In this document: one piece after another, positions 3,550 through 52,871 of the stretch
How the letters are laid out: the number at the start of each line of letters is the position of its first letter
Position numbering within the stretch: position 1 is the stretch's first letter
Origin: Pyrinomonadales bacterium
GTDB lineage: Bacteria; Acidobacteriota; Blastocatellia; Pyrinomonadales; Pyrinomonadaceae
Direction: 5' to 3'
Assembly (NCBI GenBank): GCA_038232235.1
Contig: JBBSIE010000002.1
Span: 24,572-88,571 of the forward strand
Length of the DNA stretch: 64,000 nucleotides
The notes under the pieces: generated by a model
What the model was told of the DNA's origin: nothing
What the model saw: the letters and a program-made list of their open reading frames with translations, nothing else
Databases searched by the model: none
Made by a program: the position numbers and the translations under genes

Positions 3550-5352
3550 ATGAAAACATACCTTTACAAGGTTTTTAATATAACCGCATTATTAATTTTT
3601 ATATCAGCATCATTTGCCGACGGACAAATTACCAGTTCGAGTTCGAGCGGAAGAAACGATTCCAAAACCAAGGAAGTTATACAAGCCGAAAAAGATATCA
3701 ATGATTTGATTGATAAATCCGGCGGGCATTTTAAAGCAGGTTTGGAAGCGTTTAGCCATAATCGCCGCTCAAAAGCTCGTGAAAATTTTGATAACTCAAT
3801 TGAAGAATTTCTAAAGTCACCCGTTGATGTCCAGAGAAATCAGAAATTGCGCGAATGTTACAATCAATTAATTGAAACTGTTTACCGCATCGAGTTTCCA
3901 GCCGACAACCAGCTTCCGCAAGTCCGCAGTCTTTCGGCAACCTGCAGTTGGGATATCAAAAACGAAACCGCCGACAATATTGCCAAATTCGTCAGAACAC
4001 AGCCAAATCAACCGGCAAGTAATGAATCTGTTGTTGCGACTGCCGGAAACGCAAATCAACCTGTCGAAACTCAAGTCGGATTTAACGAACAAAAATTCGA
4101 AGCGTCGCCGCTCGATGATCTGGCAAAACTCGAATTGACTCAGGACGAAGTAAATGTTGACACGCCCGAAGCGCAACAGCAGTATCAATACGCCGTTTAT
4201 GCGGTTGCCAACAAATCGCTCGGATTCAGCTTTCAAATGAGTCCGATGGTTCAGCAGTTCGTCAATTATTATCGCGGACGCGGACGCGCGACGATGGAAA
4301 CGGGACTTTATCGTTCTGGAATGTTTATGCGAATGGCGCGGCGCATTTTCCGCGAAGAAGGCGTTCCCGAAAACGTCGCGTGGCTCGCGCAGGTTGAAAG
4401 CGCGTGGAAACCGTCGGCTCTGTCGTGGGCGGCGGCTTCCGGTTTGTGGCAGTTTATTCCCGGAACGGGCGCGCGTTTCGGTCTTCGCCGCACGGCTTAC
4501 GTTGACGAAAGAAACAGTTTTGAAGAAGCAACGCGGGCTTCCGCCAAATATTTAAAGTTTTTGGCAAATCGCTACGGCGGAAATTGGGAATTGGCAATGG
4601 CGGCTTATAATTCCGGCGAAGGTAATGTTGACCGCGCTATCCGCCGCGCCGGAGTCGCAAATTTCTGGATCGCGTATCCGTATTTGCCGCAAGAAACACG
4701 CAATTATGTGCCGAATATTTTGGCGACGATTTTGATTGCCAACAGCCCCAACCAATATGGCTTTGGACATATCCGTCCCGCGCCGCAATTGACTTATGAT
4801 CGAATTCGCGTACCGCCTTCGACCAGTTTGAATTTAATGGCGCAGGCTTCGGACACGACGGTTGAGTACTTGCGTTATTTAAATCCGCATCTGCGAACAA
4901 ATATGACACCGCCCGAACCGTATATCATCAATGTTCCAGCCGGCAAAGCCAACGGAGTGGTCGCTTTGTTCAAAAGACTTCCGGCGGCAAGCCGAAATAC
5001 GGCGGTGGTCGCAAAAACCGTAACGGGTGAAAGCTGGCAGAATATTTCTAATAGAACCGGCATCAGCGTCGAAGATTTAATGGCGGCAAATCCCAAAATG
5101 CCCGTGCCGCGCGGCAAAGTCTTCGTTCCGCAAAAAGGCAACGGCGTAAATACTATAGTTTATTCGCGTCCGACCAATAATGTTCCGGTGCAAATCTCAA
5201 GCGTGCGCGTCGTCAAAGCCAAATCAGGCGATTCATTGACAAAGATTGCCGAACGCGAAGGCGTTTCGCTGGCTGAACTTGCCAAATTTAACGGTTTGTT
5301 GACCACATCTGCTTTACCGATTGGACGTGAAATCAAAATTCCGTCGAAATAA
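3550..5352 (+). CDS. Lytic murein transglycosylase (MltD-like) with C-terminal LysM repeats
   Basis: Signal peptide; SLT motifs ESAWKPSALSWAAASGLWQFIPGTG and AYNSGEGNV; LysM-like repeats at the C-terminus (VKAKSGDSLTKIAEREGVSLAELAKFNGL). Confidence 0.85.
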   Translation: MKTYLYKVFNITALLIFISASFADGQITSSSSSGRNDSKTKEVIQAEKDINDLIDKSGGHFKAGLEAFSHNRRSKARENFDNSIEEFLKSPVDVQRNQKLRECYNQLIETVYRIEFPADNQLPQVRSLSATCSWDIKNETADNIAKFVRTQPNQPASNESVVATAGNANQPVETQVGFNEQKFEASPLDDLAKLELTQDEVNVDTPEAQQQYQYAVYAVANKSLGFSFQMSPMVQQFVNYYRGRGRATMETGLYRSGMFMRMARRIFREEGVPENVAWLAQVESAWKPSALSWAAASGLWQFIPGTGARFGLRRTAYVDERNSFEEATRASAKYLKFLANRYGGNWELAMAAYNSGEGNVDRAIRRAGVANFWIAYPYLPQETRNYVPNILATILIANSPNQYGFGHIRPAPQLTYDRIRVPPSTSLNLMAQASDTTVEYLRYLNPHLRTNMTPPEPYIINVPAGKANGVVALFKRLPAASRNTAVVAKTVTGESWQNISNRTGISVEDLMAANPKMPVPRGKVFVPQKGNGVNTIVYSRPTNNVPVQISSVRVVKAKSGDSLTKIAEREGVSLAELAKFNGLLTTSALPIGREIKIPSK

Positions 5353-25087: not shown

Positions 25088-25660
25088 CTATTTAGTCGTA
25101 TCAATTTCCGCATATTCCAGTTTCAAAAGATTGTTCTGACGTTTAAACAGCCAACTGTGATGATTCGGGTCTTTGCCCGCCGCTTTATTTTTGCTCGACG
25201 ACCCGTAGCTGTAACTTTTGACTAAACGATTATTCGCTTTCGCATCAGGAGTTGGAATAATCGTTAAATCAAACACAACGGCGGAAGTGTTCATTTCAGG
25301 AACAGTCAAACGTAAGATATTTTGAACTTCTTCAGGTAATTCGGCAAACTTTATGTTCGAACCTTCGATAATTGAACTCTGCGGCGAATTTCCCGTTTTC
25401 GCATTGCTTTTCTCTTTCGCACCAACAGGTTTTGAGTCGTCGAAGCATAATTCCTGCGGAATATTTACGCCCAACGGTAAACCGATTGCGCGTTTTTGTG
25501 AACATTCCGAAAGTTTCTTTTGAACGGGCGGTGTCGGCGCGGACTCCACGCTATTTTTATTGGAGTTATTGGAAACACTCGCCGACATTGACTGCATATT
25601 GAAATTAAAACAAGCCGATAAGATTAATCCGATCAAAATGAAAAGCAGTCTAAAAATCAT
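25088..25660 (-). CDS. Hypothetical lipoprotein
   Basis: Start at M26 with a GAGGGA RBS; lipobox-like LILSAC; no family motif. Confidence 0.45.
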   Translation of the reverse strand: MIFRLLFILIGLILSACFNFNMQSMSASVSNNSNKNSVESAPTPPVQKKLSECSQKRAIGLPLGVNIPQELCFDDSKPVGAKEKSNAKTGNSPQSSIIEGSNIKFAELPEEVQNILRLTVPEMNTSAVVFDLTIIPTPDAKANNRLVKSYSYGSSSKNKAAGKDPNHHSWLFKRQNNLLKLEYAEIDTTK

Positions 25661-26071
25661 AATTTCCCTCAATTCTCGGCATACCAACGCGACTGCACCA
25701 ACGTAATATTGGCGCGGTCGTGTTCGATTGTGCAAGACCCGCGCCTCAGGATATGTAAACGCTTACTAACAACATTTTTAATTTATTTTCTCCGTCTATG
25801 GATAATAAGTTCGTCTGTCGCACCAGTCAATGATTATTTTCGTTGTAAAGAGACTATAATTATTGCAGGTTTTTCCTTCGCATTTATCTTTTTCAAACCA
25901 TTATCTTCATCAACTCAGAAGCAACAATAGACTGTATGACTCACTGTGAGCTAATTGGCTTACTTTTTACAATTGAGTTAGTATTTTTTTAATAAGAATT
26001 TCCTTGATTGATGCGAATAACTTAAATAAAATATCGCCGAAATTCAGTAATCAAAAAGTTTAACCAAATAT

Positions 26072-27527: not shown

Positions 27528-28874
27528 TTACGATTCTTCCTCTTCTTCAGTTCCGTCGCGTTTGATACCGAATTTTTCTAATCTGTATTGCAAAGTTCGG
27601 AAAGTCAAACCGAGCATTTTCGCTGATTTCGTGATGTTATTGTCGGTGCGTTCCATCGCCTGCATTATCAAACTGCGCTCGACATCTTCAAAATTTACGC
27701 CTTCGGGCGGCAGTTTGAAAAGTTCGTCGGCTGAAATGGGTTTTGATTCCTGTGTCATTTCCGGCGGCAAATCTTCAATCGTAATCGTGTCGTTTTCACA
27801 TAACAGCGTGGCGCGTTCGATTGCCGATTCTAGTTGGCGGACATTGCCCGGATAACTGTAATTTTCCAACAGACGCTTGGCTTCGGTGTTGATTTTTATG
27901 TCGCGTTTCGTGTCGCGTGTGTGTTTTTTGAGAAAATATTCCATCAAAACCGGAATATCCGAACGACGCTCACGAAGCGGCGGGATTTCGATGCTCAAAA
28001 CATTCAGGCGATAATATAAATCTTCGCGGAAACGTCCTTCCTGCGACATCTTTAACAAATCGCGGTTGGTCGCAGCGACGACGCGCACGTCAACATTTAA
28101 TTCCTTCGTGCCGCCGACGCGACGGATTTGTTTTTCCTGTAAAGCGCGGAGAATTTTCGCCTGCAAAGCGATGTCGAGTTCGCCGATTTCATCCAAAAAA
28201 AGCGTTCCGCGGTCGGCGACTTCAAAAAGACCTTTCTTTTCGCCGACCGCGCCGGTGAAACTCCCTTTTTCGTGTCCGAAAAGTTCGCTTTCAAGCAGAT
28301 TTTCGTTAATCGCCGCACAGTTGACGGCTTGAAAAACTTCATCTGTTCGCAGTGAATTATTGTGAATCGCCCGCGCAATCAATTCCTTTCCCGTTCCCGA
28401 TTCGCCGCGAATCAGCACCGTCGAACTGGATTTGGCGACCTTCAAAATCAGCTTTTTCACCTTGTCCATTTCCGGCGAATCGGAAATAATCTCCGCGTCG
28501 AGCGTCGTCAATTTATTCAAAGCGCGTGAAATCGTATCGAGCAGTTTTTCCGCATCGTATGGTTTTTGCAGATAATCAAACGCACCCAAACGCAAAGCGT
28601 CAACCGCCGAATCAACTGTTCCGTGCGCCGTTAAAAGCAGGACAATAATAGATTTATCAAAATCGGTTAATTCCTTCAACAAATCCAAACCGCTCATTCC
28701 CGTCATTTTAAAATCGGTCAAAACGAGATCAAAATGCCGGTCGGCGACAAATTTCATCGCCGCTTCGCCCGAACTCGCCGTCGTTACGTCATAACCTTCG
28801 CCCGACAAAATCATCTCCAAAATCTCGCGCTGAGATTTCTCGTCGTCCACTACTAATATGCTTTTCCTTGCCAT
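27528..28874 (-). CDS. Sigma-54-dependent response regulator (NtrC family)
   Basis: REC domain (ILVVDDE..DLVLTDFKMTGMSG), AAA+ (GESGTGKE, GAFTGA-like GSFTGA, ESELFGHEKG) and a C-terminal Fis-type HTH. Confidence 0.93.
   Translation of the reverse strand: MARKSILVVDDEKSQREILEMILSGEGYDVTTASSGEAAMKFVADRHFDLVLTDFKMTGMSGLDLLKELTDFDKSIIVLLLTAHGTVDSAVDALRLGAFDYLQKPYDAEKLLDTISRALNKLTTLDAEIISDSPEMDKVKKLILKVAKSSSTVLIRGESGTGKELIARAIHNNSLRTDEVFQAVNCAAINENLLESELFGHEKGSFTGAVGEKKGLFEVADRGTLFLDEIGELDIALQAKILRALQEKQIRRVGGTKELNVDVRVVAATNRDLLKMSQEGRFREDLYYRLNVLSIEIPPLRERRSDIPVLMEYFLKKHTRDTKRDIKINTEAKRLLENYSYPGNVRQLESAIERATLLCENDTITIEDLPPEMTQESKPISADELFKLPPEGVNFEDVERSLIMQAMERTDNNITKSAKMLGLTFRTLQYRLEKFGIKRDGTEEEEES
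28781..28874. repeat. Direct repeat copy A (5' end of the response-regulator gene)
   Basis: Aligns with 30985-31078 at a fixed offset of 2204 nt. The 68-nt core (28792-28859) has a single mismatch; both flanks are more divergent. Confidence 0.9.
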
Positions 28875-49814: not shown

Positions 49815-50101
49815 AATTATTGACATATTTTGATTAGTATTTTGTCTTGCACAAGCTGTTAAAAGCATTGCAACAGACAAAAAAGCGGCAGCGTAAAATT
49901 TTTCACCATAAATTCCTCTGCCGCATTTGTTAAAAAGAAAAGTTCTAAATCCAAACTTTGCAGCGAAAACAACATAACGCATATGTTATATTATTTTCTT
50001 AAAAAATCTAAAACTCTTCATATACTTTCGTTGAGTTTTATTTTCAAACAAAAAGCTCCGCAAAATTTTGCAGAGCTTTTTGTTTAATTAGTTTTTGATG
50101 A

Positions 50102-52135
50102 CTAAACCGAAGCGGTTTTCGAGTCATCTTTTTTACTGCGTTTTAGTCCACCGATTTGCACCAAATTTTCACCTTTGATTTCATTTTTCTCTAACACCAT
50201 CTGCTGATAAAGTTTACGCATCATCTGCATTTCTTCAGCGGCGGTTTTCGGTCCTTCCATATCCGGCTTGTTCGGGCGTTCCAAATCAATCGGATTCAAT
50301 TTCAAACCGTGATCGGTGTTGTCGAGTTCGACTTCCTTACCGCGCGCGAAAATTTCGTGGCGACCATTGTCTTTATACCATTGTGCAACCGTCGCGTTTT
50401 GGTGCATATGTTCGATAATGTTTCTCCAACCGATTCCCGTATTATAAGCACAAAAGGAAATTTCACCTTCCTGTGTTCCGTAAGGAATGATGCACATTTC
50501 GGTGCGCCGGAAATCATAATTGAACAAATCCTGAAACCACATTCCCGCAATAAACAAGAAATTCCAAGGGTCTTGACGGCGTTTTTCAATATCTTCAATC
50601 GTCCGCGTTCCATCAACTTTTCCGTAATCTTTACCCGACAAGCCGAACGATTTATCGAACTTTTTCAAGATTCCGCCCAAAGTCAAACTTTTCGGTGCGC
50701 CATACGGATTATAATTTTTAAGCAGTGCCATTCCCATCATAAAATTGGAAAACCATTTTCCGCGAGCCGTGTCGGTGATGTGTTTCATATCTTCGACCAG
50801 TCCGGGAATGCTCAAAAATTCGGGAACGGGAGCCATTTCCTTTGTTTCTTTATTAATCATCACGGCGGTTCCGACACCGCAGTTCGGATGACAGCCGCAG
50901 GAAACTTGTCCCCAATCAGCTTCCGGTCCGTGAACCAAATCGGCAAAATCGGCGAACGCGCCCATCAATGAAAGCGGAAACCAATCACGCAGCGGCTCGG
51001 TAATACCGACCTGTTTCTGAACGTCTTGAGCCAGATGCGAAAGCGTATAACGCTGCTGCAAACGTCTTTGTTCTGTAATATGCTCGTCGCGTCCGGTGAA
51101 AGAAACGGGTTGAAATGACACAAATGAAACTTTTTTTGGATTTTCCAATGCGAAACGGACAATTGAGCCGACTTGATCGTTATTTACTCCATTAACTAAT
51201 GTTGTCACGAGAACAATATCAACTCCGGCTTCGTGCAAGTTGTTGATCGCGCGTAATTTAACATCAAAAAGATTGCCGACTTGTCTGTGCGAGTTAGCAT
51301 CGTTGCCAACGCCGTCGAATTGCAGGTAAACAAATCTCAAACCGGCTTCAGCGGCTTCGCGGCAAAATTCTTTTGATTTTGCAAACTCGATTCCGTTAGT
51401 TGCGGCTTGCACCGAATTGTAGCCGACTTCGCGCGAATAACGCACAGCTTCGAGAAAATAAGGTGAAAGCGTCGGTTCGCCGCCCGAAAACTGCACCGAC
51501 ATCTGACGACGCGGTTTGATCGAAATCGCGTTGTCGAGAATTTCCTTGACATCTTCCATCGAAAGTTCGTGAACAAAACCGACTTGATTCGCGTCCATAA
51601 AACACGGGTCGCACATCATATTGCAGCGATTTGTCAGATCAACCGTCAGAACCGCGCCGCGTCCGTATTTAATAGTTGATGAGCCGTGATTGTGCAGTTT
51701 TTCGTCGTTGTGCGATTGAATGTCGCGTCCGGGAAAATTGGCTTCGATGTGCTGCAAAAACTTTGAATCAATCGCCATTAAATCTTCAAAATGTCCGTGA
51801 TCGGGACAATCTTTAATCATCCAGATTTCACCGTCGCGTTCAATAATTTGTGCTTTGATCTCGCCGACTTTTTCATTAACTAATATGCCGACTTCTTTTT
51901 TGCCGGCTAAAATATCTTCACGCGCTTCAATTACACAGTTTGGGCAGAGCGAATCGGTCGTGCGCGGAAAACCGAGCGTTGGTTTGGTCTTCTGCCAAGA
52001 TTTAAGCAATGGCTTATCCGACCATTTCGGCGTAAAAGACGGATTCGGTTTGTATTTATTAACGGCTTTGACAGCGTTGAAAACACCGCCGGCAATATAC
52101 GTCAAGCCTTTTTCAAAATGTTTAACAGGTGTCAT
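50102..52135 (-). CDS. Large radical SAM enzyme (COG1964 / MJ0619-type); candidate membrane-spanning-lipid synthase (Tes/Mss) homologue
   Basis: 677 aa; N-terminal CPNC..x~50..CPDHGH metal site; radical SAM CNMMCDPC; SVQFSGGEPTL; a long Cys-containing C-terminal extension (GQVSCGCHPNCG). Confidence 0.6.
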   Translation of the reverse strand: MTPVKHFEKGLTYIAGGVFNAVKAVNKYKPNPSFTPKWSDKPLLKSWQKTKPTLGFPRTTDSLCPNCVIEAREDILAGKKEVGILVNEKVGEIKAQIIERDGEIWMIKDCPDHGHFEDLMAIDSKFLQHIEANFPGRDIQSHNDEKLHNHGSSTIKYGRGAVLTVDLTNRCNMMCDPCFMDANQVGFVHELSMEDVKEILDNAISIKPRRQMSVQFSGGEPTLSPYFLEAVRYSREVGYNSVQAATNGIEFAKSKEFCREAAEAGLRFVYLQFDGVGNDANSHRQVGNLFDVKLRAINNLHEAGVDIVLVTTLVNGVNNDQVGSIVRFALENPKKVSFVSFQPVSFTGRDEHITEQRRLQQRYTLSHLAQDVQKQVGITEPLRDWFPLSLMGAFADFADLVHGPEADWGQVSCGCHPNCGVGTAVMINKETKEMAPVPEFLSIPGLVEDMKHITDTARGKWFSNFMMGMALLKNYNPYGAPKSLTLGGILKKFDKSFGLSGKDYGKVDGTRTIEDIEKRRQDPWNFLFIAGMWFQDLFNYDFRRTEMCIIPYGTQEGEISFCAYNTGIGWRNIIEHMHQNATVAQWYKDNGRHEIFARGKEVELDNTDHGLKLNPIDLERPNKPDMEGPKTAAEEMQMMRKLYQQMVLEKNEIKGENLVQIGGLKRSKKDDSKTASV

Positions 52136-52296
52136 AATTATATTTTCTCCAAATAAACTTCAATGTTGTACTGTTAGAGTTTCATCTCCGCTTGAAGTTA
52201 AGCAATAAAAAAGTAAAATTTATGCAATTAAAATAGCTTTTGATAAAATAGCATCAGTTTGGCAAAAACGAAACTCTATCATTAGTTTTTAAAGTA

Positions 52297-52312
52297 TGCA
52301 AAAATTGTGCCG
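52297..52312 (-). promoter_or_regulatory. Sigma-54 (-24/-12) promoter facing the radical SAM gene
   Basis: The minus strand reads cGGCAC-AATTT-TTGCA, against the consensus TGGCAC-N5-TTGCW. It lies about 160 nt upstream of the ATG at 52135. Confidence 0.6.
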
Positions 52313-52871
52313 TTGGGTAAATGCTGGTTATCTTATTTATTATCAACTAATTATGGGAATCTCATATTTATAAATAGGTTGAAAACTTGGGGCAAATTGA
52401 CACAACTAATTAGACAATCATTGTAAAACGACATTATGACACAACAATAATATTGTATCGAACTTGATTTTAGGTTTTTTTGAAAATTGAAACTTAAAAA
52501 TTAAACTCCTGTTTAAAAAACACTTCTAAAAATATATAAATTATGTATTGAAATTTTTCATTACTGCCTTAAAAAACAAAGCTCAAAGGAAATTTTGCAC
52601 AGGTTCGTGGATTTTCGTTCTCTTTTTGTTCACCTTTAAGCACTTAGCTTAACGAACACTTTAAGGAAACCTCATAACTCATTGCCAACAAAGAGTTTTC
52701 TATTATTAAAATAATACTTTACATCTATTTTTCTTTGTGATAAATTTGCATTCACCTTACGAGAGAATTTACGGACGGAAAAATTTTATTCTCTCGTTTC
52801 AAGAATCACAAAAGACAATTCGGTTTTTATTTTGGAGGTTAGTGATAATAAAAACTACTTCTAAATGATTT

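What the first reader, a model, noticed from the sequence alone, without database searches (positions are those of the whole stretch)
50102..52312. Tes/Mss-like giant radical SAM enzyme under an apparent sigma-54 promoter
The 677-aa protein combines an N-terminal CPNC...CPDHGH metal site and a CNMMCDPC radical SAM cluster motif with a long Cys-bearing C-terminal region. This is the architecture I associate with the COG1964/MJ0619 group, which includes the archaeal tetraether synthase (Tes/GDGT-MAS). Bacterial homologues of that enzyme were proposed as membrane-spanning lipid synthases (Mss) in Thermotogae and Acidobacteria. If the assignment is correct, the gene would make tail-to-tail coupled (diabolic-acid or brGDGT-type) lipids. 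About 160 nt upstream, the coding strand reads cGGCAC-AATTT-TTGCA, a near-perfect -24/-12 element. This implies dependence on an enhancer-binding protein and regulated, not constitutive, expression. I do not know of sigma-54 control of such a lipid-remodelling gene having been reported.
Basis: partly seen in the sequence, partly recalled or inferred. Interest (0 to 1): 0.62.

Follow-up and report, generated by a model that had tools for sequence, protein, structure and literature searches.

The report
Sigma-54-switched Tes-like lipid synthase gene
A soil acidobacterium (Pyrinomonadaceae) carries a bacterial relative of the archaeal enzyme that welds two lipid tails into a membrane-spanning lipid. 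The gene sits behind a sigma-54 promoter and a pair of activator-binding sites that are conserved across the family, so it is probably switched on by a signal, but the enzyme's activity is untested.

Summary

**Enzyme.** It is a true Tes/GDGT-MAS homologue: PDB 7TOL E 1.5e-64, and 7TOM/7TOL are the top fold matches. It belongs to a separate bacterial sister clade.
- It scores below NCBI's Tes cut-off (326 against 450 bits).
- It has lost the three Cys ligands of the N-terminal [4Fe-4S] cluster.
- It keeps the radical SAM cluster, the SAM-binding residues, the rubredoxin-like site, the C-terminal cluster cysteines, and the Met439 and Tyr459 equivalents.

**Correction.** Thermotoga Mss is not a Tes homologue.

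**Promoter.** In this window alone the match is no better than chance. However, GGCA[CT]-N5-TTGC lies on the coding strand upstream of the gene in 36 of 40 related species, against 0 of 40 on the other strand and about 1% of control windows. Two 17-bp dyads (TGTGTCA-N3-TGACACA, 39-40 bp apart) lie about 90-145 bp further upstream in 35 of 41 loci. The window also encodes an NtrC-type activator.

**Open points.** The lipid function, the cognate activator and the signal are unknown.

The parts
50102..52135 (-). Gene for a 677-aa Tes/GDGT-MAS-family radical SAM enzyme (bacterial clade without the N-terminal cluster).
   Evidence: ORF. Pfam Radical_SAM at residues 167-329 and PF23545 zinc ribbon at 56-121. 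NF045702 Tes 326 bits, cut-off 450. 7TOL E 1.5e-64. Foldseek top hits 7TOM/7TOL, E 4e-23. Ligand mapping.
52146..52150 (-). Ribosome-binding site GGAGA, 10 nt upstream of the ATG.
   Evidence: Read directly from the sequence.
52284..52288 (-). Predicted transcription start, about 12 nt downstream of the -12 GC. This would give a leader of about 150 nt.
   Evidence: Inferred from the usual sigma-54 promoter geometry; not mapped. The leader shows no significant fold (z -1.29) and no Rfam match.
52297..52312 (-). Sigma-54 promoter, -24/-12 element CGGCAC-AATTT-TTGCA.
   Evidence: Conserved on the coding strand in 36 of 40 related species, against 0 of 40 on the other strand and 16 of 1708 control windows.
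52341..52353 (+). IHF-consensus match TATCAACTAATTA in the AT-rich spacer between the enhancer and the promoter. A possible DNA-bending site.
   Evidence: The strict consensus is present in only 3 of 41 loci, against about 0.006 expected per locus. The spacer averages 57% A+T against 47% for the loci. This is weak evidence.
52388..52404 (-). Proximal activator-binding dyad (UAS 1). In gene orientation it reads TGTGTCAATTTGCCCCA, 10 of 12 matches to TGTGTC-N5-GACACA. Its centre is about -110 from the predicted start.
   Evidence: A site of at least 9 of 12 matches lies at -160..-70 from the -24 element in 35 of 41 loci; the background rate is 0.018 per 90 nt.
52427..52443 (-). Distal activator-binding dyad (UAS 2). 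It reads TGTGTCATAATGTCGTT, 8 of 12 matches with the left half intact. It lies 39 bp upstream of UAS 1, with its centre about -149.
   Evidence: Of the 13 loci with two sites of at least 9 of 12 matches, 11 have them 39-40 bp apart.
50044..50087 (.). Bidirectional intrinsic terminator: a 20-bp hairpin flanked by A and U runs, between the converging pyruvate kinase and tes genes. It makes tes monocistronic.
   Evidence: -27.7 kcal/mol, z -9.3, and none of 200 shuffles folds as well.
27528..28874 (-). NtrC-type sigma-54 activator (receiver domain, AAA+ domain with a GSFTGA loop, and HTH_8). It shows that the organism uses sigma-54. It is NOT shown to be the activator of tes.
   Evidence: Sigma54_activat 242 bits. 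There are no UAS copies near it. Its HTH differs from those of activators that sit next to TGTGTC-type sites elsewhere.

Best explanation
**Enzyme.** The gene encodes a bacterial sister-clade member of the Tes/GDGT-MAS radical SAM family. It keeps the parts that the archaeal enzyme uses to join two unactivated terminal carbons:
- the SAM-cleaving [4Fe-4S] cluster and the SAM-binding residues;
- the C-terminal [4Fe-4S] cluster, which in Tes holds the first substrate radical as a C-S adduct, together with its labile Met and the conserved Tyr;
- the rubredoxin-like iron site.

It has lost the N-terminal auxiliary cluster. In its place stands an invariant His triad, and two further invariant Cys have appeared next to the C-terminal cluster.

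**Most likely activity (inferred, not shown).** It couples the omega ends of two iso-branched chains of membrane glycerolipids. This would give iso-diabolic-acid-type membrane-spanning lipids, the skeleton of brGDGTs. Subdivision-4 Acidobacteria make such lipids, yet the Acidobacteria examined have no Mss.

**Expression (sequence conservation shown; mechanism inferred).**
- The gene is a single-gene unit that ends at a strong hairpin terminator.
- It is transcribed by RNA polymerase carrying sigma-54 from a -24/-12 promoter.
- That promoter needs an NtrC-family activator bound at two 17-bp dyads (TGTGTCA-N3-TGACACA), centred about 110 and 150 bp upstream of the start.
- The intervening DNA is AT-rich and probably bends to bring activator and polymerase together.
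- The gene is therefore switched on by a signal and is not constitutive. The activator and the signal are unknown.
For: **Family**
- 32% identity to MJ0619 over 496 residues, E 1e-72.

**Catalytic residues** (numbering from PMC9433317; mapped)
- C98/C102/C105 map to C171/C175/C178.
- F106, Q268, S271 and R275 map to F179, Q342, S345 and R349.
- Met439 maps to M532 and Tyr459 to Y552.
- C338, C455/456 and C470 map to C419, C548 and C562.
- C33 and H36 map to C110 and H113.
- All of these are invariant in 43 bacterial sequences of at least 69% identity.
- The mechanism of Tes is taken from PMC13459092.

**Context**
- The organism is a Pyrinomonadaceae acidobacterium.
- Subdivision-4 Acidobacteria make iso-diabolic acid, and the Acidobacteria examined lack mss (PMC13159169; PMC13274423).
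- Bacterial Tes homologues have been proposed for brGDGT synthesis (PMC8941075; PMC10087280).

**Promoter and enhancer**
- The upstream neighbour gene changes within the family, but the promoter and enhancer stay with tes.
- A collection-wide scan for enhancer plus promoter returned 12 hits labelled Pyrinomonadaceae, Blastocatellia or Chloracidobacterium. All 12 are linked to tes.
- The module is absent from 20 of 20 distant orthologues.
- Sigma-70-like matches are not enriched.
- A terminator follows the gene.
- An NtrC-type activator is encoded in the window.
Against: **Function**
- No bacterial Tes homologue has a demonstrated activity (PMC11868695).
- A distant Tes homologue of Thermoanaerobacter ethanolicus, expressed in E. 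coli, made no membrane-spanning lipid (preprint 10.1101/2022.04.21.487849).
- Tes homologues were detected in only 3 of 14 acidobacteria that make iso-diabolic acid, under stringent search criteria.
- The protein scores below NCBI's Tes cut-off, lies in a sister clade and lacks one cluster.
- No lipid gene is a conserved neighbour.
- The clade also occurs in Gemmatimonadota, Acidimicrobiia and Eisenbacteria. To my own knowledge no such lipids are documented in those groups.

**Regulation**
- No transcription start is mapped. Only fragments of relatives' coding sequence were found in metatranscriptomes.
- The activator is unidentified.
- In this window the right halves of both dyads are degenerate (10 of 12 and 8 of 12 matches).
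Confidence: 0.6

Rival explanations
1. The family and the regulation are as described, but the chemistry or the substrate is different. The enzyme would then perform another radical reaction on a hydrophobic substrate, for example a mid-chain cross-link, a cyclisation, or coupling of non-glycerolipid chains. Iso-diabolic acid in these bacteria would be made by a different, unknown enzyme.
For: - The protein sits in a sister clade separated from canonical Tes by a long, fully supported branch.
- It scores below the Tes cut-off.
- The N-terminal cluster is lost, and a His triad plus two extra invariant Cys have appeared.
- Only 3 of 14 acidobacteria that make iso-diabolic acid had Tes homologues.
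- The Terriglobus roseus member of the same broad clade lacks even the C-terminal cluster cysteines.
- The T. ethanolicus homologue was inactive in E. coli.
- In some lineages a second, uncharacterised radical SAM gene is co-transcribed or adjacent.
Against: - All residues tied to C-C coupling in Tes are invariant here, including the Met439 and Tyr459 equivalents, which are completely conserved in 1000 archaeal homologues.
- The Acidobacteria examined have no mss homologue, so no other candidate coupling enzyme is known in this phylum.
Confidence: 0.3
2. The GGCAC-N5-TTGC element is a chance match or has another role, and the gene is transcribed from an ordinary sigma-70-type promoter.
For: - In the window alone the match is at chance level: 1 found against 1.47 expected.
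- No transcription start is mapped, and rpoN was not located.
Against: - Strand-specific conservation in 36 of 40 species, with variable flanks.
- A position-locked pair of dyads upstream in 35 of 41 loci.
- No enrichment of sigma-70-like sites, and none better than 9 of 12 matches.
- A sigma-54 activator is encoded in the window.
Confidence: 0.05
3. The protein is a 7,8-dihydro-6-hydroxymethylpterin dimethyltransferase. This is the older annotation of MJ0619, which JGI still attaches to many relatives.
For: Name given by a source to many close homologues. The Pfam domain name 'HMPTM' derives from the same annotation.
Against: MJ0619 itself was shown by structure and assay to be the tetraether/macrocyclic archaeol synthase (PMC9433317). 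From general knowledge, methanopterin biosynthesis is not expected in Acidobacteria.
Confidence: 0.02

Closest known systems
GDGT-MAS / Tes of Methanocaldococcus jannaschii (MJ0619; PDB 7TOL, 7TOM; NCBIfam NF045702)
   Same: - Same overall fold (Foldseek E 4e-23, TM-score 0.66-0.68 normalised to the target).
- 32% sequence identity.
- Same CX3CX2C cluster and SAM-binding residues.
- Same rubredoxin-like CX2C...CX2H site.
- Same C-terminal cluster cysteines, labile Met and conserved Tyr.
   Different: - Bacterial sister clade.
- 326 bits against a cut-off of 450.
- A 10-residue deletion removes C73, C77 and C80 of [4Fe-4S]N.
- An invariant His triad H142/H148/H150, and extra invariant C413, C415 and H416.
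- A 42-residue spacer in the rubredoxin motif where MJ0619 has 20.
- About 55 extra N-terminal residues (a predicted helix at 3-28) and about 100 extra C-terminal residues.
- The presumed substrate is a bacterial iso-branched lipid, not archaeol.
Bacterial Tes homologues of Candidatus Solibacter usitatus, Candidatus Koribacter versatilis and Edaphobacter aggregans (Zeng 2022; Chen 2022; Halamka 2023)
   Same: Acidobacterial Tes homologues proposed, without a functional test, as brGDGT or membrane-spanning lipid synthases. The E. aggregans protein is as distant from archaeal Tes (32%, 4e-61) as this one.
   Different: - The Solibacter and Koribacter proteins are much closer to archaeal Tes (40-42% identity, 1e-139 to 1e-149). 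They may belong to the canonical clade that keeps the N-terminal cluster, but I could not fetch them to test this.
- No regulation has been described for any of them.
Mss, membrane-spanning lipid synthase of Thermotoga maritima (Tmari_0825) and Thermoanaerobacter ethanolicus
   Same: [quoted passage not shown]
   Different: - It is a different radical SAM family, found precisely because Thermotoga has no Tes homologue.
- It is active only anaerobically.
- No mss homologue was detected in the Acidobacteria examined.
glnAp2 with NtrC, the classic enhancer-dependent sigma-54 promoter of enteric bacteria
   Same: - A -24 GG and -12 GC promoter.
- Two 17-bp dyads with 6-N5-6 geometry, about 100-150 bp upstream.
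- An AT-rich, bendable spacer.
- A Fis-type HTH activator family.

The glnAp2 details are from my own knowledge; the geometry here is.
   Different: - The half-site is TGTGTC, not TGCACC.
- The two sites are 39-40 bp apart.
- The target is a lipid-modifying enzyme.
- The activator is unknown.
- The site also differs from the NmpR low-oxygen enhancer GCGCA-N5-TGCGC (PMC11841059).
TrsS radical SAM (seleno)protein (NCBIfam NF045646)
   Same: Second-best NCBIfam match, 217 bits, covering the N-terminal half.
   Different: It scores far below its own cut-off (490 bits) and far below the Tes match. The C-terminal domain does not match.

Membership tests
Tes / GDGT-MAS (NF045702; PDB 7TOL) | Radical SAM CX3CX2C cluster and the residues that bind SAM / 5'-deoxyadenosine | tested here: met
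   C171/C175/C178. F179, Q342, S345 and R349 align with F106, Q268, S271 and R275. All are invariant in 43 sequences.
Tes / GDGT-MAS (NF045702; PDB 7TOL) | Rubredoxin-like mononuclear iron site with 3 Cys + 1 His (C9X2C12X20C33X2H36) | tested here: met
   C64X2C67X42C110X2H113. PF23545 E 9.3e-14. C110 and H113 align with C33 and H36.
Tes / GDGT-MAS (NF045702; PDB 7TOL) | N-terminal auxiliary [4Fe-4S] cluster ligated by C73, C77, C80 and a His | tested here: not met
   The three Cys fall in a 10-residue deletion in 44 of 44 bacterial sequences; only the His (H150) remains. Every representative in this protein's clade lacks the motif, whereas 13 of 19 rows in the clade containing 7TOL have it.
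Tes / GDGT-MAS (NF045702; PDB 7TOL) | C-terminal [4Fe-4S] cluster (3 Cys + labile Met439) and the conserved Tyr459 | tested here: met
   C419, C548, C562, M532 and Y552 align with them and are invariant. Metal content itself is not testable here.
Tes / GDGT-MAS (NF045702; PDB 7TOL) | Whole-protein score at or above NCBI's curated equivalog cut-off (450 bits) | tested here: not met
   326.2 bits.
Tes / GDGT-MAS (NF045702; PDB 7TOL) | Placement inside the clade of characterised enzymes | tested here: not met
   Sister clade separated by a branch with 100/100 support.
Tes / GDGT-MAS (NF045702; PDB 7TOL) | Same fold | tested here: met
   AlphaFold2 model with pTM 0.76 and pLDDT 66. Foldseek 7TOM/7TOL E 4e-23 to 6e-22, TM-score 0.66-0.68 normalised to the target; the next hit is at 1.5e-5.
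Tes / GDGT-MAS (NF045702; PDB 7TOL) | Catalyses C(sp3)-C(sp3) coupling of two lipid tails | not testable with these tools
   Needs lipid analysis of a mutant or an expression host, or an in vitro assay.
Mss (Thermotoga/Thermoanaerobacter membrane-spanning lipid synthase) | Sequence homology to Tmari_0825 / WP_129545148.1 | not tested
   I had no Mss sequence to hand. The paper states that Mss is not a Tes homologue and that no mss homologue was detected in the Acidobacteria examined.
Enhancer-dependent sigma-54 promoter | -24 GG and -12 GC separated by 10 nt, with the flanking consensus TGGCAC-N5-TTGC | tested here: met
   CGGCACAATTTTTGCA, 10 of 11 matches.
Enhancer-dependent sigma-54 promoter | Element conserved, on the right strand, in orthologous regions of related species | tested here: met
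   36 of 40 on the coding strand, 0 of 40 on the other strand, 16 of 1708 in controls. Information is confined to GGCAC and TTGC.
Enhancer-dependent sigma-54 promoter | Upstream activator sequences at about -100 to -150 | tested here: met
   TGTGTC-N5-GACACA dyads in 35 of 41 loci, in two positions 39-40 bp apart.
Enhancer-dependent sigma-54 promoter | The organism encodes sigma-54 (rpoN) and at least one AAA+ activator | tested here: inconclusive
   An activator with a GSFTGA loop is present in the window.
Enhancer-dependent sigma-54 promoter | Transcription starts about 12 nt downstream of the -12 element and depends on rpoN and the activator | not testable with these tools
   No RNA run holds this organism. 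Only fragments of relatives' coding sequence were found.

The most novel reading that the evidence does not exclude
In subdivision-4 Acidobacteria (Pyrinomonadaceae), this Tes-like enzyme without the N-terminal cluster may be the long-sought synthase that makes iso-diabolic-acid-type membrane-spanning lipids in aerobic bacteria. Its synthesis would be a regulated response, switched by a dedicated NtrC-family activator working with sigma-54 through a TGTGTCA-N3-TGACACA enhancer. In other Acidobacteria (Bryobacterales, Solibacteraceae, Acidobacteriia) the same kind of enhancer drives a conserved, uncatalogued small RNA. If so, the amount of brGDGT-type lipid in soils would reflect a signalling decision (for example on oxygen, temperature, pH or envelope stress). 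It would not be only passive membrane adaptation or a shift in community composition.
Probability: 0.27. Interest if true: 0.78.

Novelty: new variant of a known kind. Interest (0 to 1): 0.55.

Why it matters
**The open question.** Branched GDGTs and their iso-diabolic-acid precursors are widely used to reconstruct past temperature and pH. The enzyme that couples the two chains in Acidobacteria is still unproven, and so is whatever controls its production.

**What this locus offers.**
- A well-defined candidate enzyme variant. The catalytic core is kept and one electron-transfer cluster is lost.
- The first concrete regulatory handle I could find for any such gene: a conserved sigma-54 promoter with a defined enhancer sequence.

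**What becomes testable.**
- The enhancer sequence can be used to fish out the activator.
- The activator's sensory partner would say which environmental signal turns membrane-spanning lipid synthesis on.
- This bears on why oxygen limitation raises brGDGT production in culture (cited), and on how lipid proxies should be read.

If the enzyme turns out not to make these lipids, the finding reduces to one more sigma-54 regulon member of unknown function.

Tried and rejected
1. **Whole-genome search for rpoN, ether-lipid genes and further regulon members.** rpoN and elb/plsA therefore remain unchecked beyond the 64-kb window. The window holds neither an RpoN box nor any lipid gene.
2. **Mapping the transcription start with public RNA data.** No RNA run holds this organism. 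Two 'ice metagenome' metatranscriptomes hold only fragments, about 88-92% alike, of relatives' coding sequence.
3. **Leader RNA element.** No Rfam match, no significant fold, and no conserved small ORF in the long leaders.
4. **Sigma-70 promoter as an alternative.** Matches are not enriched.
5. **Conserved gene neighbours as a clue to function.** None is shared across lineages.
6. **Activator next to tes.** No GAFTGA-type gene lies within 6 kb in any of 80 loci.
7. **The window's own NtrC-type activator as the cognate one.** No dyad lies near it. Its HTH is unlike those of activators adjacent to TGTGTC-type sites. It is only 43% identical to the acidobacterial activator that sits beside such a site.
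8. **Orthologues of that activator (L085) in Pyrinomonadaceae.** Nothing above 49% identity was found, and none in that family.
9. **Identity with the NmpR low-oxygen enhancer.** Earlier notes suggested this, but the motif is different: GCGCA-N5-TGCGC.
10. **One literature search was wasted.** 'bacterial Tes' also matched 'bacterial testing'.
11. **Supplementary table S21 of PMC13159169** (which acidobacteria have Tes homologues) is not held.
Full report
**1. What is there**

The ORF at 50102-52135 (minus strand) is real. It is 677 aa long, starts at ATG and has a GGAGA ribosome-binding site 10 nt upstream. Further cysteines are at 413, 415, 419, 548 and 562.

Immediately after the stop codon lies a 20-bp hairpin flanked by A and U runs (-27.7 kcal/mol, z -9.3). 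It is shared with the converging pyruvate kinase gene. Upstream is a 736-bp AT-rich spacer and then a divergent phosphohexomutase gene. The gene is therefore a single-gene unit.

The rest of the window holds housekeeping genes: Lon, LpxK, SurA, PBPs, shikimate enzymes and others. It also holds one two-component operon whose regulator is an NtrC-type sigma-54 activator with receiver, AAA+ (GSFTGA loop) and HTH_8 domains.

The nearest relatives of the protein (97-100% identical) come from Pyrinomonadales/Pyrinomonadaceae metagenome-assembled genomes. The organism is therefore a soil acidobacterium of subdivision 4.

**2. The protein is a Tes/GDGT-MAS homologue**

- Pfam finds Radical_SAM plus the 'HMPTM' N-terminal zinc ribbon, which is named after MJ0619.
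- The best NCBIfam model is tetraether lipid synthase Tes, at 326 bits. The next is TrsS at 217 bits, and all others are below 80 bits.
- The best solved structure by sequence is GDGT-MAS of M. jannaschii (7TOL), E 1.5e-64 over residues 92-566. BLASTP gives 32% identity over 496 residues.
- An AlphaFold2 model (pTM 0.76, pLDDT 66; low confidence around the metal-binding loops) matches 7TOM/7TOL first. Foldseek E is 4e-23 and the TM-score normalised to the target is 0.66-0.68. The next hit, SkfB, is at 1.5e-5.

**3. It is not a canonical Tes**

The score is below NCBI's curated cut-off of 450 bits.

I built a tree from 35 full-length representatives taken from 1.84 billion proteins, a few fetched loci and 7TOL. 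It shows a deep split with 100/100 support:
- One side holds 7TOL and the sequences with the CPxxCGxCxxH motif (13 of 19 rows have it).
- The other side holds this protein and 23 others, none of which has the motif.

I then mapped the published ligands of MJ0619 (Lloyd et al. 2022, PMC9433317) onto my alignment. The numbering offset was checked against eight known Cys and His positions.

| Site in MJ0619 | Residues in MJ0619 | Residues here | Status |
|---|---|---|---|
| Radical SAM cluster | C98, C102, C105 | C171, C175, C178 | kept |
| SAM-binding residues | F106, Q268, S271, R275 | F179, Q342, S345, R349 | kept |
| Rubredoxin-like site | C33, H36 (with C9, C12) | C110, H113 (with C64, C67) | kept |
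| C-terminal cluster Cys | C338, C455/456, C470 | C419, C548, C562 | kept |
| Labile Met and conserved Tyr | Met439, Tyr459 | M532, Y552 | kept |
| N-terminal cluster | C73, C77, C80 | none (10-residue deletion) | lost in 44 of 44 bacterial sequences |
| N-terminal cluster His | His | H150 | kept |

H150 now forms an invariant triad with H142 and H148. Two extra invariant Cys and a His (C413, C415, H416) have appeared next to C419.

In the published mechanism, the radical SAM cluster and the C-terminal cluster do the chemistry. The first substrate radical is parked as a C-S adduct on the C-terminal cluster (PMC13459092). The bond-forming apparatus is therefore intact here. What is lost is probably part of the electron-supply path; that last point is my inference.

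Earlier notes of this scan on other genomes reached the same 'one cluster missing' reading. I reached it first from the alignment and then tested it as described above.

**4. Correction on Mss**

Sahonero-Canavesi et al. (PMC13159169) found Mss precisely because Thermotoga has no Tes homologue. They detected no mss homologue in the Acidobacteria they examined. Under stringent criteria they found Tes homologues in only 3 of 14 acidobacteria that make iso-diabolic acid. Mss is therefore a functional analogue, not a relative.

Their preprint adds a negative result. A distant Tes homologue of T. ethanolicus (24% identity) made no membrane-spanning lipid when expressed in E. coli.

The idea that bacterial Tes homologues make brGDGT-type lipids comes from Zeng et al. 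2022. It guided the discovery that S. usitatus makes brGDGTs and is used by Halamka et al.. As of 2025 it was still called experimentally unconfirmed.

One member of this protein's broad clade is from a cultured strain: Terriglobus roseus WP_014786616.1, 39-41% identical to this protein. It lacks even the C-terminal cluster cysteines, so the clade is functionally heterogeneous.

**5. The sigma-54 promoter**

In the window alone the match proves nothing: one match against 1.47 expected. I therefore fetched the orthologous loci of 80 species.

- Within 500 nt upstream of the gene, the core GGCA[CT]-N5-TTGC lies on the coding strand in 36 of 40 Pyrinomonadaceae/Blastocatellia species.
- It never lies on the other strand, and it is in 0.9% of control windows.
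- When the sequences are anchored on the element, information content is confined to GGCAC and TTGC. The N5 spacer, the flanks and the distance to the ATG (49-421 nt) all vary. This is the signature of selection on the element itself.
- The upstream neighbour gene differs between sub-lineages (phosphohexomutase, or two other families), but the element always stays with tes.
- It is absent upstream of the more distant orthologues in Terriglobia, Gemmatimonadota and other groups.

**6. The enhancer**

K-mer counting in the 350 nt upstream of the promoters brought up GTGTGTC/GACACAC. The full site is a 17-bp dyad, TGTGTC-N5-GACACA, often TGTGTCA-N3-TGACACA.

- Sites with at least 9 of 12 matches cluster almost exclusively 80-160 nt upstream of the -24 element: 49 of 54 hits in a 600-nt scan.
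- They are present in 35 of 41 loci, against a background of 0.018 per 90 nt.
- They occupy two positions, 39-40 bp apart in 11 of the 13 loci that have two sites.
- None of 20 distant orthologues has such a site.

In this window the sites are at 52388-52404 (10 of 12 matches) and 52427-52443 (8 of 12, left half intact). Their centres are about 110 and 149 bp upstream of the predicted start. The spacer between them and the promoter is AT-rich and contains one exact IHF-consensus match, which is weak evidence.

This is the classic architecture of an NtrC-type enhancer. The half-site differs from NtrC's, and from the NmpR low-oxygen enhancer that earlier notes had suggested for other Pyrinomonadaceae regulons.

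**7. A wider scan**

I scanned 185,579 species genomes for a perfect left half-site, a near-perfect right half-site and the promoter core at the right distance.
- All 12 hits labelled Pyrinomonadaceae, Chloracidobacterium or Blastocatellia are linked to tes.
- In one Blastocatellia lineage (L103, L180) the module drives a two-gene operon: an uncharacterised 369-aa radical SAM gene followed by tes.

Other hits are described under 'noticed in passing'.

**8. What I could not settle**

The activator encoded in the window is good indirect evidence that the organism uses sigma-54.
- The cognate activator is unknown. None lies within 6 kb of tes in any of 80 loci. The window's own activator has no dyads nearby and a different HTH. 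Orthologues of an acidobacterial activator that sits beside such a dyad were not found in Pyrinomonadaceae.
- No transcription start could be mapped.
- The lipid function is inferred only.

**9. Verdict**

The enzyme is a new variant, without the N-terminal cluster, of a known family whose bacterial members are already hypothesised to make membrane-spanning lipids. The conserved sigma-54 promoter with a defined enhancer is new as far as I could find. It fits the general link between sigma-54 and the cell envelope (PMC3162934).

My estimates are:
- about 0.97 that it belongs to the Tes family in the broad sense;
- about 0.9 that the sigma-54 promoter and enhancer are functional;
- about 0.55 that the enzyme couples lipid tails.

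Noticed in passing
L091:6330-6536 (-), L100:4382-4588 (+), L106:3305-3511 (-), L112:4142-4348 (+), L119:4757-4963 (+), L139:5393-5599 (+), L189:4630-4836 (-), L193:3804-4010 (-); also L124, L167, L182, L196: In Bryobacterales, Solibacteraceae, Acidobacteriia and other Terriglobia, the same TGTGTCA-N3-TGACACA dyad plus a sigma-54 promoter is followed by no ORF. Instead there is a conserved stretch of about 150-190 nt. It has a single-stranded 5' part (GAATTGATGAAGTCACTC...AAACCTG), then a long closing stem CCCTCTGYTGCAAC...GTTGCARCAGAGGG and a U run. This is a candidate sigma-54-dependent small RNA. It has no Rfam match at gathering threshold, and the sequence is not in this window.
   Followed up: partly
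L115, L148 (and, with ORFs of similar length, L125, L136, L157, L158; L088 in Selenomonadaceae): In L115 and L148 (Spirochaetes) the same dyad plus a sigma-54 promoter sits in front of a sigma-70-family factor of about 285 aa that looks like RpoS. This recalls the Rrp2-RpoN-RpoS cascade of Borrelia. The dyad may be a widespread recognition site of one large subgroup of NtrC-type activators. In 22 of the 120 scan hits an activator gene lies in the same 8-kb locus, often directly beside the site.
   Followed up: partly
L180:6720-7826 (+) and L103 (ORF starting about 201 nt after the promoter at 3927-4041): In one Blastocatellia lineage (L103 is labelled 'Clostridia', probably a mislabelled bin) the enhancer and sigma-54 promoter drive an uncharacterised radical SAM gene of 368-369 aa (motif CNLSCVYC). 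In L103 the tes homologue follows about 120 nt later; in L180 the locus ends just after the radical SAM gene. NCBIfam and PDB give only generic radical SAM matches. It could be a second lipid-modifying enzyme.
   Followed up: partly
L049:2310-3491 (+), L056:4528-5697 (+), L057, L066: In Gemmatimonadota a different uncharacterised radical SAM gene of about 390 aa lies directly upstream of the tes homologue on the same strand, with a gap of 60-120 nt. It has no sigma-54 element.
   Followed up: partly
P0133 = WP_014786616.1, Terriglobus roseus DSM 18391: This cultured subdivision-1 acidobacterium has a member of the same N-cluster-less clade (39-41% identical). It also lacks all three cysteines of the C-terminal cluster. 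By the Tes mechanism it should not be able to form the C-S intermediate.
   Followed up: partly
window 52444-52456: A 13-nt palindrome ACAATAATATTGT directly abuts the distal activator site. An earlier first-reader note on this spacer also reported it. It may be a further operator, for example for the divergent phosphohexomutase gene. I did not check whether it is conserved.
   Followed up: no
window 50300-52000, runs X25 and X26: Two 'ice metagenome' metatranscriptomes hold many short contigs about 88-92% identical to conserved parts of this gene. Relatives of the gene are therefore transcribed in nature.
   Followed up: partly
window 25731-25746 (-): A second, weaker sigma-54-like match, AGGCGCGGGTCTTGCA (9 of 11), overlaps the annotated start of the 215-aa ORF 25088-25735, which has no Pfam match. 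It is too close to that start to serve it as drawn.
   Followed up: no
L085:3054-4400 (-) and L170: In two Acidobacteriota genomes an NtrC-type activator gene ends about 25 nt before a perfect TGTGTCA-N3-TGACACA dyad. A sigma-54 promoter follows and drives a secreted Gly/Ser-rich protein (499 aa in L085; the ORF is cut off at the locus end in L170). This is a compact activator-and-target pair that could serve to define the DNA-binding specificity.
   Followed up: partly
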